Position numbers: made by a program. 64,000 bases of DNA from assembly GCF_017348835.2 (NCBI RefSeq), contig NZ_CP071375.1. One strand, given 5' to 3'. Within the stretch, counting starts at the first letter, position 1, and each line of letters opens with the position of its first letter. Positions 1-3,000 of the stretch are shown here, piece after piece. This DNA is from Escherichia coli (GTDB taxonomy: Bacteria; Pseudomonadota; Gammaproteobacteria; Enterobacterales; Enterobacteriaceae).

Positions 1-3000
1 GTTTCTTCTTTATGGTGTAGTGTGATCTTCACTTTATGGATGCTAACAATATGAAAAGAAAAATTATTCCCGTGCTAATCGGTTGTACGCTCTCTTTCTC
101 TGCCCTGGCGGCACAACCTACGGCTGAGCGCTATGTCGTCAGTTTTCCAGAAGGCACGCACGTGAACTATGCCGGCGCATTTGCCAGTGCATTCCCGAAC
201 GGCCTTCCGGTTGGGATAGGTTCTGGCCTGCTGTTCACCGGTAAACAGGGCGATGCCCTGACATTCGCAACTATTACCGATCGCGGTCCGAACGCGGATT
301 CACCGAAAGAGGGGAAAAACGAAACTAAAATTTTCGTTACGCCAGATTTCGCGCCGCTGCTGATGACGATTCGTGTACAAAACGGCAAAGCGGAGGCCAT
401 CGATCCCCGTCCTCTGCATGACGATAAAGGCGCGATCAACGGTCTGCCGCTGGCAAGCGACGTGATTGGCTCCACCAATGAAGTGGCCTTCAGCGACACG
501 TTACATAGACTGAAGGGGGATAATCGCGGGCTGGATACGGAAGGGATCACTCCGGATGGTAAAGGAGGTTAGTTCCAGTTTGCTCACTCGTGTTAAGAAG
601 GTATTGATCACCTGAACATCCGAATTGGTGAGCCTATTTAATAGAGCGGGTGGTATACCTTTACTAACAATCGCTTTGCGGTGACTTTCGTAGTTTTTAT
701 TACTCATTGTTGATCCTCAAAAATCATTGTATGGCGGCATTGATCGTTTCCAGCAACCTTTACTTACTCACTTCGAACTGCATCCTCGTAGACTGTTCCA
801 CTACAATAATCGAAAAGGCGCGGATGTCCATTCAGGTATCCCGCTAATACGTATAGCAATAACAATGGCTTATGCGGCGCGCGCTGTTCACCCTTGTGCC
901 AGATTTTTATATTGGCAATTGCCTGCTGTAGCGATTTACTGGAAGCTATTGATATCCCTGGCAGTGAAATAATTGCGATCATGCTCGCAAATTTTCTGCT
1001 GTTCAAGCCTGCAAGTGAAGATATATTACCTTGATCTCATTTGTTTTTTTGCTGCCTGTTCTGAGAACGTATAAGGACATTCTCCATGAATAAACTCCCT
1101 GATCATCTTCCGCGGCGGTATATCATCGAAGCTATCCATTTATGGGATGCGGGAGAAACTCATCAGTTCCAGCCTGCGCGGTTGTATGAGATTGAATATC
1201 ATGGCCGACGTTACCCCTCGAAGGCGATTGCTGGCATCGCAGCGACATTGATGACGGGGACGCAATTTACCCCTGCGGATTTCACCGGCGGAATAAAATC
1301 TAAATGTGTCAAGCTACTCATAGAGCAGGGATTTCATATTCATCTGGATAAAGCCGCTGCGGCTCCCATAGCCGACGTTCTGTTCCCGGATGAGTTGCCG
1401 TCGCAGGAGACATACCTTGAAGGTGCGGCGATAAAGGTGACAGTAAACCGCTATGAACGCGATAAAAAGGCCCGAGATAAAGCGGTCGAACATCATGGAT
1501 GCCAGTGCAACGTATGCGGTGTTGATCTGGTGAAGATCTATGGTGATATCGCTGAAGGCTTTATCCATGTGCATCACCTGGTGCCGCTGTCAGCCATTAA
1601 AGAGGATTACCAGCTGGATCCAGTTAATGATTTGCTGCCTGTGTACCCTAATTGCCATGCGATGTTGCACCGACGCAAACCACCGTTTACGCCGGAGCAG
1701 TTAAAAGCGCTGATGGATGCGAATAAATCAAATTAATGAACGCTCACCTTTCGCGCCAAAACTGCAAAATTGCTTCTACAAACTTGTCAGAAATAATCCC
1801 CCGACGGGCTGCCGTGCTGAAATGACTGCTTCGCAGTGCCGTCGTCCAGTTCTCCGGTGACCGGTACGCTGAACCGTAATATCCCGTGCTTAAATCGTCC
1901 GGGTCTTCATCAGGCGCGTTCGTCAGTCCTCTTTCACCTTGTTGCTGGAAGTCGACGAAAATAATATTGGCTAAAACATTATTTTGATAATTGCCATAAA
2001 TAACTTCATACGCATGAGGGAAATTTTCTTTCCAGTACCAGGTGGTATCGCCGCAAAACCACGGTGCGTCAGTAATATTATTAAGCTGAGAATGGTATTG
2101 TTTTAGATCCCTACGAAAGGCTTCAACCATATGATTAAAGTGTTGAGGGTGTGACGCGTAGTCACTGGTCATTAAGTCAAATTCGCCTTGCATCCAGCAT
2201 ACGCCGAGGAATTTGTTATGCGGATTTTTTGCCAGTGCGGCTCGCGTTCTGCTGACTAAATCCTGGTATAGCGGAGTATCCGTTCCCCAACGACAAGCAT
2301 CATGGCTGGCTCCGTGCCGTTCTGAATATGTCCCTTCGCTGCCCGCGGTAAAAGCCGATCCGCCACGGCAACACGGAACGATGAGAACCCCTGCATTATC
2401 AGGAATAAAGGGCAGTAATTTCCGTGCTATATGCAGTGCCTGGCCAACGGTGCCGTACTGTGTTTGATGATTCGTTGCCAGAGGATGGTGATAACCCTGC
2501 ATATCCTGAACATCGTGTGGGCAGTGAGTCAGTGGAATAATGTCGTTAAAGTGACATGACGGGCCTCCGGGATGCGTATGCGCAAATCTCGCTAATTGTT
2601 TAATTCTGGGATGAGGCGCATCTTCCCTGTCCGGTAATGGCAGTCCTTCGCCATACGCCATGGCATTAGACTGACCAGCAACGGTAAGAATATAGTAATA
2701 ATCAGGCGATATTATTGCGTTCATATAAATTTCGCGTAATTGAAATGACAAATTGATAGCAGGGCCCCTTTACCGGGGCCCTGAAGCGTTAGTTTTGTAC
2801 TGTGACTTTATTATCCTTCACAGAAATTAAAACTGAATCCATCACTGCTTTGCCGCCTGCAGTTTCACCGCCAATAATTAATAAACTATTATTCCAGGGC
2901 AATGATACTCCGTAGGCCCGACCTTGCGATAATTCACCCGATTTATCCCATTTCCCGTTATACCAAAGATGAATATCAGCGCTATATGATTTTTTCAGGC

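What the first reader, a model, noticed from the sequence alone, without database searches (positions are those of the whole stretch)
1086..1736. Stand-alone HNH nuclease with an unassigned N-terminal domain: candidate modification-dependent (type IV) restriction enzyme
The 216-aa protein has a clear C-terminal HNH motif (CxCxxC ... HVHH ... N ... N ... CHxxxH) and a ~130-aa N-terminal domain with no catalytic signature. That two-domain layout (DNA-modification reader plus HNH) is typical of type IV restriction nucleases. The N-terminal domain contains Y43-P44-x-x-A47, which resembles the Tyr-Pro-x-x-Ala pocket described for sulfur-binding (phosphorothioate-reading) domains of ScoMcrA-type enzymes. 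The gene is absent from this position in my recollection of K-12 and sits next to a truncated neighbour, consistent with a small inserted defence islet.
Basis: partly seen in the sequence, partly recalled or inferred. Interest (0 to 1): 0.65.

Follow-up and report, generated by a model that had tools for sequence, protein, structure and literature searches.

The report
ScoMcrA-head/HNH restriction-type nuclease, weakened allele
The gene is real and encodes a small DNA-cutting enzyme of a widespread, untested family that looks like restriction enzymes attacking chemically modified foreign DNA, but its N-terminal domain is not a sulfur reader, its partner gene is dead, and this copy has lost a zinc-binding cysteine.

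Summary
Window 1086-1736 (+) is a real 216-aa gene, RefSeq WP_001037966.1 'HNH endonuclease'. It has three parts: an 88-aa N-terminal domain, a disordered linker of about 30 aa, and a McrA-type HNH domain.

The head domain occurs almost only in type-IV-like restriction proteins, fused to HNH, HNH_2, NOV_C, McrB AAA_5, EVE, SRA, DUF3427 or MrcB_N. That supports a modification-dependent nuclease, but the ligand is unknown.

In E. coli, Klebsiella, Citrobacter and Enterobacter the gene forms a mobile divergent pair with an EcoWI-type phosphorothioate-dependent SBD-HNH gene. Here that partner is a 48-codon stub without a start codon.

This allele carries C187Y at a zinc-ligand cysteine. That position is Cys in 62 of 64 family members and in all six other E. 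coli alleles I read. E. coli shows repeated independent decay of both genes. K-12 keeps only the start codon, which is reused by the small gene ythB.

Verdict: an ordinary but uncharacterised type-IV-like nuclease, probably impaired in this strain.

The parts
1086..1736 (+). Head-HNH gene, 216 aa plus stop (RefSeq WP_001037966.1 'HNH endonuclease')
   Evidence: ORF. Annotation. 1054 homologues at E<=1e-3. dN/dS of 0.07-0.35 among E. coli alleles.
1086..1349 (+). Residues 1-88: ScoMcrA_N 'head' domain (alpha-beta-beta-alpha-alpha-beta). Conserved H26, F28, Y34, Y43, P44, K46, A47, G50, A52, G68, G69, C74.
1350..1448 (+). Residues 89-121: flexible linker, leading into the conserved pre-HNH motif E112-G113...V120-N-R-Y-E-R-D126..A129-R130
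   Evidence: pLDDT below 50 for residues 90-103 and 110-117. Linker length varies in alignment A1, while the EG/VNRYERD..AR columns are invariant or nearly so.
1449..1733 (+). Residues 122-216: McrA-type HNH (beta-beta-alpha-metal) nuclease domain. H161-V-H163-H164 at 1566-1577; N189, H191, H195.
   Evidence: PF01844 residues 141-197 (weak for this sequence at E 0.006, down to 2e-11 in relatives). Alignment to EcoKMcrA residues 199-269. Foldseek top PDB hits are EcoKMcrA and ScoMcrA.
1506..1517 (+). First zinc-finger pair C141-x-x-C144 (TGC 1506-1508, TGC 1515-1517)
   Evidence: Invariant in 64 of 64 sequences. Sequence read.
1644..1655 (+). Second zinc-finger pair, broken: Y187 (TAC 1644-1646, a Cys codon TGC or TGT in the other alleles) ... 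C190 (TGC 1653-1655)
   Evidence: Cys in 62 of 64 family members; this is the only Tyr. Cys in six other E. coli alleles. Aligned with the Cys of EcoKMcrA 'LCPNCH'. DNA alignment.
806..949 (-). Dead stub (first 48 codons) of an EcoWI-type phosphorothioate-dependent SBD-HNH restriction gene. The start codon has changed from ATG to ATA.
   Evidence: NCBIfam NF045808 positions 2-45 of 284, E 1.7e-16. RefSeq calls it a partial 'phosphorothioated DNA-binding restriction endonuclease'. Homology to intact genes begins at window 806. ATA versus ATG seen by comparing.
950..1085 (.). Divergent intergenic region shared by the two genes, including the RBS (AAGGA) of the head-HNH gene
   Evidence: Conserved with the pair in other genera: blastn covers window 807-1696. 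The same start site is translated in K-12 as ythB.
1048..1059 (+). 12-bp direct repeat TTTGCTGCCTGT, copy 1. Together with copy 2 it marks the deletion end-points of the common E. coli 'remnant' allele.
   Evidence: Two copies in 64 kb, 0.02 expected by chance. The junction in strain P276M joins the two copies.
1631..1642 (+). 12-bp direct repeat TTTGCTGCCTGT, copy 2 (inside codons 182-186)
36..572 (+). Truncated 178-aa ORF with a signal-peptide-like N-terminus, on the far side of the rearrangement. It belongs to the islet, not to the nuclease.
   Evidence: RefSeq: 'hypothetical protein, incomplete, missing C-terminus'.

Best explanation
The gene encodes a single-chain nuclease made of the ScoMcrA-type 'head' domain, a flexible linker and a McrA-type HNH domain.

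Most likely mechanism (inferred): it works as a type-IV-like, modification-dependent restriction enzyme. The head domain binds DNA, probably a feature of foreign DNA that is absent from Dam/Dcm-methylated E. coli DNA. The tethered, weakly sequence-specific HNH domain then nicks or cuts nearby, using the H163/H164-N189-H195 metal site.

Genomic history (shown): the gene arrived as one half of a mobile divergent two-gene cassette. The other half is an EcoWI-type enzyme that cuts phosphorothioated DNA. The cassette landed at the leuX-nanS defence hot-spot.

State in this window (shown): the partner is a dead stub. This copy carries C187Y in the structural CxxC...CxxC zinc site.

Consequence (inferred): the enzyme here is probably destabilised or inactive, an early step of the decay that has already removed the gene from K-12 and many other strains.
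For: Identity of the domains:
- Head.
- HNH.

Type-IV context of the head domain:
- The family has 3729 representatives (one search was too early; results).
- Among 86 longer members the partner domains are HNH 32, HNH_2 20, EVE 12, NOV_C 8, AAA_5 7, nSTAND3 6, SAD_SRA 2, DUF3427 2, MrcB_N 2 and AspBHI_N 1.
- Example architectures: head+MrcB_N+AAA_5 and head+DUF3427+HNH.
- AFDB hits show the same pattern.

Type-IV context of the HNH module:
- The same module is fused to more than 30 unrelated N-domains, including DpnI_C, DUF3427 and EVE.

Defence-island context:
- Neighbours include McrBC, Zorya II, AbiE, Wadjet, Mokosh and AbiJ, next to tRNA-Leu.
- No methyltransferase lies beside the gene in the window.

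The cassette:
- The divergent SBD-HNH/head-HNH pair occurs in E. coli, Klebsiella, three Citrobacter species and Enterobacter, with different flanks.
- EcoWI-type enzymes restrict dnd+ plasmids on their own (PMC7461809).

Past function:
- dN/dS of 0.07-0.35 among E. coli alleles.
- The start site is translated in K-12.

Impairment:
- C187Y.
- Frameshifted or truncated variants are circulating.
- Three independent deletions have occurred.
Against: - No biochemical or genetic data exist for any head-HNH protein, or for the head domain itself. [quoted passage not shown]
- In most multi-domain relatives the head sits next to another recognised reader. It may therefore be an accessory or regulatory module rather than the specificity domain.
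- PADLOC and NCBIfam give only weak hits to the protein itself.
- The effect of C187Y is inferred from conservation, not measured. Some HNH nucleases function without a structural zinc site.
- The Y187 allele is very common: about 900 genomes match the TAC 85-mer at >=99% identity. That could mean it is tolerated or still useful.
Confidence: 0.6

Rival explanations
1. This is an active stand-alone type IV enzyme whose N-domain reads phosphorothioate sulfur through a Tyr-Pro-x-x-Ala pocket like the ScoMcrA SBD.
For: - YPxKA is nearly invariant in the family.
- The gene travels with a PT-dependent enzyme.
- The head domain is part of the PT-dependent enzyme ScoMcrA.
Against: - The motif aligns to the ScoMcrA head (residues 29-92), where ScoMcrA has Y-D-S-K-A, not to SBD Y164-P165.
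- hhalign of head against SBD gives probability 0.2%.
- A paralogue lies next to a dnd/ssp/pbe-type PT modification cluster in C. freundii.
- In ScoMcrA, PT binding was assigned to the SBD and the head was left without a function.
- This allele has C187Y.
Confidence: 0.08
2. A split ScoMcrA. Head-HNH and the neighbouring SBD-HNH would work together as a hetero-oligomer or a regulator/effector pair. The lone head-HNH in this window would then be an orphan with little activity of its own.
For: - The divergent pair, with its shared intergenic region, is conserved in four genera with different flanks.
- Both genes are also on one E. coli ICE, 4 kb apart.
- Head and SBD are fused in ScoMcrA, a Rosetta-stone argument.
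- Stand-alone head proteins exist.
Against: - EcoWI alone is a dimer. It cuts PT-DNA in vitro and restricts dnd+ plasmids in vivo (PMC7461809).
- More distant head-HNH genes have no SBD neighbour: L023-L029 and Pantoea.
- E. coli lineages keep either gene alone in hundreds to thousands of genomes.
- The head is not part of the ScoMcrA dimer interface.
Confidence: 0.15
3. A defence nuclease that does not depend on DNA modification. The head domain would sense something else, such as a phage protein, a DNA structure or a nucleotide signal. Alternatively it would keep the HNH auto-inhibited, giving an abortive-infection-type effector.
For: - The head usually accompanies other readers rather than replacing them.
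- It is fused to nSTAND3 NTPases and to ZorC-EH-like proteins.
- It is flexibly attached in ScoMcrA.
- Structurally related HNH domains include CBASS Cap5.
Against: - The overwhelming majority of partner domains are type IV restriction parts.
- The head has conserved basic residues (R41, R42, K46, K71, K73) and a weak winged-helix-like fold. Both fit DNA binding.
Confidence: 0.15
4. A homing-endonuclease, colicin/toxin-type or phage HNH fragment with no restriction role.
For: Weak PHROG 'HNH endonuclease' hits, E 3e-7 at best.
Against: - No intron, intein or terminase context, and no immunity gene.
- The closest structures are EcoKMcrA and ScoMcrA, not colicins or I-HmuI-type enzymes.
- The protein is full length relative to 60+ homologues.
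- It is chromosomal, in a defence-island context.
Confidence: 0.02

Closest known systems
ScoMcrA (Streptomyces coelicolor Sco4631; PDB 5ZMM), a type IV enzyme built as head-SBD-SRA-HNH
   Same: - Both have a C-terminal HNH domain and a beads-on-a-string design.
   Different: - The window protein has no SBD and no SRA domain, so it lacks both domains that give ScoMcrA its known specificities (PT-DNA and 5mC).
- It is 216 aa against 561 aa.
- The role of the shared head domain is unknown even in ScoMcrA.
EcoKMcrA (E. coli K-12 e14 prophage; PDB 6GHC), built as NEco-HNH
   Same: - A two-domain single-chain enzyme: specificity domain, linker, then a CxxC...CxxC HNH domain.
- The HNH domains align and it is the best Foldseek PDB hit.
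   Different: - The N-domain is the unrelated NEco fold, which reads 5mC/5hmC.
- No head domain is present.
- EcoKMcrA keeps all four zinc cysteines.
EcoWI and other SBD-HNH phosphorothioate-dependent endonucleases (NCBIfam NF045808; PMC7461809)
   Same: - It is the genomic partner of the head-HNH gene, as a divergent neighbour in four genera.
- Both are small single-chain reader-HNH enzymes in defence islets.
   Different: - Different reader: SBD (PF26340) versus head (PF26345), hhalign probability 0.2%.
- Different HNH subfamily: HNH_2 (PF13391) versus HNH (PF01844).
- In this window only a 48-codon stub of it remains.
wH-HNH / PUA-wH-HNH 6mA-dependent enzymes (SruGXI, HhiV4I; PMC11037411) and PUA/DUF3427-HNH enzymes (PMC6765204)
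   Same: - The same design logic and size range (224-283 aa for wH-HNH).
- One member of the window's HNH clade carries a DpnI_C winged-helix domain, and others carry DUF3427 or EVE.
   Different: - Dam-6mA specificity would be self-toxic in E. coli (inference).

Membership tests
HNH (beta-beta-alpha-metal) nuclease superfamily, McrA-like zinc-finger subgroup | Catalytic His / Asn / metal-binding His in a beta-beta-alpha fold | tested here: met
   H163, H164, N189, H191 and H195 are invariant in 64 sequences. PF01844 matches residues 141-197. The AF2 HNH domain has pLDDT 84-96. EcoKMcrA is the top PDB hit.
HNH (beta-beta-alpha-metal) nuclease superfamily, McrA-like zinc-finger subgroup | Four structural zinc ligands, CxxC...CxxC | tested here: not met
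   C141, C144 and C190 are present, but position 187 is Tyr. It is Cys in 62 of 64 relatives and in 6 of 6 other E. coli alleles.
ScoMcrA_N 'head' domain family (Pfam PF26345) | Sequence and fold match to the N-terminal head domain of ScoMcrA | tested here: met
   [not shown]
Sulfur-binding domain (SBD, Pfam PF26340 / NCBIfam NF045808) | Homology to the roughly 150-aa helical SBD with the HK/HR...YP sulfur cavity | tested here: not met
   [not shown]
Type IV (modification-dependent) restriction enzymes | Nuclease fused to, or partnered with, a domain that recognises modified DNA | tested here: inconclusive
   The architecture and the partner-domain spectrum fit. No ligand is known for the head domain.
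Type IV (modification-dependent) restriction enzymes | No cognate protective methyltransferase | tested here: met
   No methyltransferase is annotated within the 64-kb window or the 20 kb upstream in the 99.99%-identical strain PE164.
Type IV (modification-dependent) restriction enzymes | Cleavage or restriction that depends on a DNA modification | not testable with these tools
   This needs enzyme assays or transformation and phage assays.
EcoKMcrA family | NEco N-terminal 5mC/5hmC-binding domain | tested here: not met
   Only the HNH part aligns (query 123-198 to 6ghc 199-269). PADLOC PDLC03656 matches the HNH part only.
Homing / colicin-type HNH nucleases | Intron, intein or immunity-gene context; colicin DNase-type or I-HmuI-type fold relatives | tested here: not met
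   [not shown]

The most novel reading that the evidence does not exclude
The roughly 88-aa ScoMcrA 'head' domain could be a previously unrecognised class of DNA-modification reader, or another kind of foreign-DNA sensor. Head-HNH proteins such as this one would then be its minimal effector form. The conserved EcoWI-type SBD-HNH / head-HNH cassette would be a two-enzyme unit covering two different modifications, the unfused counterpart of multi-reader ScoMcrA. The C187-bearing E. coli alleles would give a directly testable, genetically tractable model for assigning a function to a domain present in more than 3,700 protein clusters.
Probability: 0.3. Interest if true: 0.6.

Novelty: new member of a known kind. 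Interest (0 to 1): 0.35.

Why it matters
The head domain has had no assigned function since the ScoMcrA structure of 2018. Yet it is found in thousands of type-IV-like restriction proteins. The E. coli head-HNH protein is the simplest context in which to find out what it does. Natural C187 and Y187 alleles, and strains with or without the EcoWI-type partner, already exist as controls.

For this particular window the practical message is more modest. The gene is an annotated, uncharacterised restriction-type nuclease in a decaying defence islet. It is probably weakened by a zinc-site mutation, and it is not a phosphorothioate reader.

The locus also illustrates how defence genes at the leuX/nanS hot-spot are gained and then eroded by small deletions. 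One of those deletions created the K-12 small gene ythB.

Tried and rejected
3. Direct naming through libraries:
   - Pfam-A in the tool gave only a weak HNH hit, because its release lacks PF26345.
   - NCBIfam gave only a sub-threshold NF045808 hit.
   - PADLOC gave only weak mREase_IV hits.
   - PHROGs gave only generic HNH hits.
4. Promoter and terminator scan of 700-1900. Nothing above shuffled expectation, so uninformative.
5. Homing or colicin-type HNH. Rejected on context and structural neighbours.
6. Obligate two-subunit enzyme with the SBD-HNH partner. Considered, but ranked below independent action, because EcoWI works alone and each gene persists alone in many genomes.
7. Exact counts of Y187 versus C187 genomes. 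Only approximated, using two 85-mer megablast searches. Partial matches of remnant alleles blur the identity bands.
8. dnd/ssp genes in the host genome. Checked only in the 64-kb window plus 20 kb upstream, through the annotation of the near-identical strain PE164; none found. The rest of the genome was not searched.
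Full report

Yes. The ORF listing gives a 216-aa ORF at 1086..1736 (+) with an ATG start preceded by AAGGA. In 1018 of 5426 complete E. coli genomes, at least 80% of the 1.2-kb stretch 560-1760 is present. At least 80% of the gene itself is present in 1238 genomes. RefSeq names the protein WP_001037966.1 'HNH endonuclease'.

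The window is 99.99% identical over 49.9 kb to strain PE164. That strain's annotation can therefore be read onto the window.

A search of 5.8 billion proteins returned 1054 relatives at E<=1e-3. In an alignment of 64 of them, these residues are invariant: C141, C144, H163, H164, N189, C190, H191 and H195, plus the pre-HNH motif E112-G113...N121-x-x-E124-R125...R130. The HNH region aligns to EcoKMcrA residues 199-269. EcoKMcrA and ScoMcrA are the best Foldseek matches in the PDB. The nuclease signature is far beyond chance.

**2. Anatomy**

AlphaFold2 with the 64-sequence alignment gives three parts:
- a confident domain at residues 1-88;
- a linker at residues 90-117 with pLDDT below 50;
- a confident domain at residues 122-216.

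The 'about 130-aa N-terminal domain' of the finding is therefore an 88-aa domain plus a flexible tether. Modelled alone, the N-domain reaches pLDDT 87 and pTM 0.80, with the topology helix-strand-strand-helix-helix-strand.

**3. What the N-domain is**

It is the 'head' domain of ScoMcrA. The evidence:
- phmmer against all PDB sequences matches 5zmm_A residues 29-92, with query 24-86 (E 1e-3).
- PADLOC's 560-position mREase_IV model matches at positions 29-91.
- The precomputed Pfam label on the 99%-identical P0001 and on most homologues is PF26345, printed as 'ScoMcrA_N'.

[quoted passage not shown] Phosphorothioate binding was assigned to the separate SBD (PMC6224610).

**4. The Tyr-Pro-x-x-Ala idea**

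The motif is real and nearly invariant: Y43 in 62 of 64, P44 in 60, K46 in 62, A47 in 60. However, it aligns with 'Y-D-S-K-A-I-A-G' in the ScoMcrA head, not with Y164-P165 of the SBD. ScoMcrA itself lacks the Pro at that position.

A profile-profile comparison of the head alignment with the SBD halves of the E. coli, Klebsiella and Citrobacter SBD-HNH proteins gives probability 0.2%. I therefore reject homology to the sulfur pocket.

**5. What company the head domain keeps**

A profile search of 1.84 billion representatives finds 3729 proteins with the domain (1349 at E<=1e-10). They range from 96 to 1567 aa, and the domain is N-terminal or internal.

Pfam scans of 86 members of at least 240 aa give these counts:

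| Partner domain | Members |
|---|---|
| HNH | 32 |
| HNH_2 | 20 |
| EVE | 12 |
| NOV_C | 8 |
| AAA_5 (McrB-type) | 7 |
| nSTAND3 | 6 |
| SAD_SRA | 2 |
| DUF3427 | 2 |
| MrcB_N | 2 |
| AspBHI_N | 1 |
| Mrr_N | 1 |

Two examples read in full are head + MrcB_N + AAA_5, and head + DUF3427 + DUF7669 + HNH. Foldseek against AFDB50 shows the same picture, and also finds stand-alone head proteins of about 95 aa.

So the head is a module of modification-dependent restriction systems. It usually sits beside another recognised reader, as it does in ScoMcrA. That makes it either an additional reader or an accessory DNA-binding or regulatory domain. In the 216-aa head-HNH proteins it is the only candidate specificity domain. 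The conserved basic residues R41, R42, K46, K71 and K73 fit DNA binding; this is inference.

**6. What company the HNH module keeps**

A scan of 100,044 species genomes found 575 relatives. Most share only residues ~95-216 with the window protein. Their N-terminal parts fall into more than 30 unrelated clusters. Those that Pfam can name are DUF3427 (x2), DpnI_C, DUF7225 and a weak EVE. DpnI_C is the 6mA-reading winged helix described in PMC11037411. This domain-shuffling pattern is what is seen in modification-dependent HNH enzymes.

**7. Genomic context: a two-gene cassette, half dead here**

Immediately upstream, on the other strand, window 806-949 encodes the first 48 codons of a 'phosphorothioated DNA-binding restriction endonuclease' (NF045808 positions 2-45, E 1.7e-16; RefSeq pseudogene). 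Its start codon is ATA here but ATG in strain P276M. Homology to intact genes stops at window 806.

In strains ET358, FDAARGOS_144, EC476, STEC379 and GPEC464 that gene is intact. It is 290 aa and 33.2 kDa, with SBD (PF26340) plus HNH_2, and it is divergent from an intact head-HNH gene. It belongs to the EcoWI family. EcoWI (33.4 kDa, motif KPzzLL...PF.L.W) cuts GpsAAC N7/N6 and blocks transformation by dnd+ plasmids on its own (PMC7461809). That paper does not mention the neighbouring head-HNH gene.

The same divergent pair occurs in these genomes:
- Klebsiella sp. R445, next to Wadjet;
- Citrobacter sp. Cu233, FP75 and MGH106;
- Enterobacter sp. JUb54.

Nucleotide similarity to the window is confined to 807-1696, so the flanks differ. 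A 57%-identical E. coli paralogue sits on an integrative conjugative element, with an SBD-HNH_2 gene 4 kb away.

More distant head-HNH genes have no SBD neighbour:
- In Pantoea stewartii the neighbour is a Mokosh MkoC-like protein.
- In a Sulfurimonadaceae genome it is an HNH_2 protein with a different N-domain.
- In Citrobacter freundii the gene lies at the same leuX hot-spot, next to PT-modification genes: a dnd-related methyltransferase (TIGR04096), SspA/DndA, dnd_assoc_4 and PbeC/DndD. This argues against PT-dependent killing by the head-HNH protein.

In PE164, and so in the window, the islet between tRNA-Leu and nanS is only about 5 kb. In order it contains AbiJ-NTD4, IS remnants, the truncated 178-aa ORF, the SBD stub and head-HNH. 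No methyltransferase and no dnd/ssp genes are annotated in the window or in the 20 kb beyond it.

**8. State of this allele**

Position 187 is Tyr (TAC, 1644-1646). It is Cys in 62 of 64 family members; one has Gly, and this is the only Tyr. It is Cys in all six other E. coli alleles I read. It aligns with the Cys of EcoKMcrA 'LCPNCH'. It is therefore the third ligand of the CxxC...CxxC structural zinc site.

E. coli alleles differ with dN/dS of 0.07-0.35, so the gene has been under purifying selection. Signs of decay are nevertheless abundant:
- The cluster representative P0001 has G113D at an invariant Gly.
- P0002 and P0006 are frameshifted, and P0003 and P0056 are truncated.
- ET358 has R122C.
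- Roughly 1500 genomes keep only the last 106 bp. This results from a deletion between two 12-bp direct repeats, TTTGCTGCCTGT, at 1048-1059 and 1631-1642. Two copies occur where 0.02 are expected. That remnant also carries TAC.
- Others keep only 34-48 bp.
- K-12 keeps the SBD stub, the intergenic region and about five codons.

Two 85-mer searches suggest about 900 genomes with the TAC version and about 220 with TGC in the same local haplotype. These counts are approximate. That C187Y impairs the enzyme is an inference from conservation, not a measurement.

**9. Mechanism proposed**

Shown: the domain identities, the tethered architecture, the catalytic residues, the context and the mutation.

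Inferred: the head binds DNA carrying some non-E. coli feature, and the HNH domain nicks or cuts nearby, as in EcoKMcrA, ScoMcrA and EcoWI. Dam-type and Dcm-type methylation cannot be the targets, because the host carries them.

I put the type-IV-like function at about 0.6. I put obligate cooperation with the SBD-HNH partner at about 0.15, a non-modification sensor role for the head at about 0.15, and the PT-pocket version at under 0.1.

**10. Novelty**

The gene is annotated and both of its domains are in Pfam. No head-HNH protein, and no head domain, has an experimentally assigned function in the literature I could search. The pairing with EcoWI-type genes is not mentioned in the EcoWI paper, the only one I checked for it.

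I file it as a new, uncharacterised member of a known kind (single-chain modification-dependent HNH nucleases), in a probably weakened allele. Interest is moderate. The window's copy is ordinary and decaying, but the family offers a clean way to solve the head-domain question.

Noticed in passing
L104 (NC_000913.3) 8598-8696, corresponding to window 1086-1100 joined to 1741 onwards: The K-12 small-protein gene ythB (b4802) starts at exactly the ATG of the head-HNH gene. After about 5 codons it runs into the sequence that lies downstream of the HNH stop in the window. ythB is therefore a scar ORF left by deletion of the nuclease gene. YthB was detected as a tagged protein (bioRxiv 10.1101/511675), so this promoter and RBS are active.
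   Followed up: partly
window 1048-1059 and 1631-1642; L002 4990-5015: Two exact 12-bp direct repeats (TTTGCTGCCTGT) flank the 583 bp missing from the common E. coli 'remnant' allele. That allele has an intact SBD-HNH gene but only the last 35 codons of head-HNH, and occurs in roughly 1500 complete genomes. This is a textbook short-repeat deletion.
   Followed up: yes
window 806-949 (-): The SBD-HNH stub has the same breakpoint (805/806) in the window, in strain GPEC1040 and in K-12, so the truncation is old and shared. In the window its start codon is also mutated, ATG to ATA.
   Followed up: yes
window 1747-2724 (-): nanS is an intact 326-codon ORF here, 98% identical to the NanS annotated in ET358. 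RefSeq nevertheless annotates it as a partial pseudogene in PE164 (identical across nanS) and in F2_81 (same gene order; identity across nanS not checked). RefSeq also calls a 29-aa 'hypothetical protein' (the tail of the ythB homologue) just after the HNH stop. This looks like an annotation artefact.
   Followed up: partly
L101, L103, L004, L003, L102 (E. coli strains EC476, GPEC464, ET358, GPEC1040, STEC379): The flanks of the cassette vary between strains. Type II Zorya replaces nanS/nanM in two strains. McrBC, AbiEii with CbtA, or a cytosine methyltransferase lies on the other side in others. The leuX-nanS junction is a defence-gene hot-spot.
   Followed up: partly
L017 / L018 (Citrobacter freundii) 6001-12651: A head-HNH paralogue (54% identity) sits at the same leuX hot-spot (lptFG-yjgR-ahr side). 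It is directly next to a PT-modification cluster: a dnd-related methyltransferase, SspA/DndA, dnd_assoc_4 and PbeC/DndD.
   Followed up: partly
L019-L098 (genome-contig loci): The HNH module (EG..VNRYERD..AR...CxxC...HVHH...PNCHAMLH) is fused to more than 30 mutually unrelated N-terminal domains across phyla. Most of these domains are unknown to Pfam, so they form a pool of candidate new reader domains.
   Followed up: partly
window 36-572 (+) and 504-707 (-): There is a truncated 178-aa ORF with a signal-peptide-like start, which RefSeq marks as 'missing C-terminus'. An unassigned 68-aa ORF overlaps its end. No family hit was found for either.
   Followed up: partly
window ~8244-8782 (-) and ~35310-36724 (-): In strain PE164, which is identical to the window across both genes, fimA and yjiR are annotated as frameshifted pseudogenes.
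   Followed up: no
window ~37417-39957 (+): A penicillin G acylase gene lies between yjiA and yjiS. The window has one extra G at 39064 relative to PE164, inside this gene.
   Followed up: no
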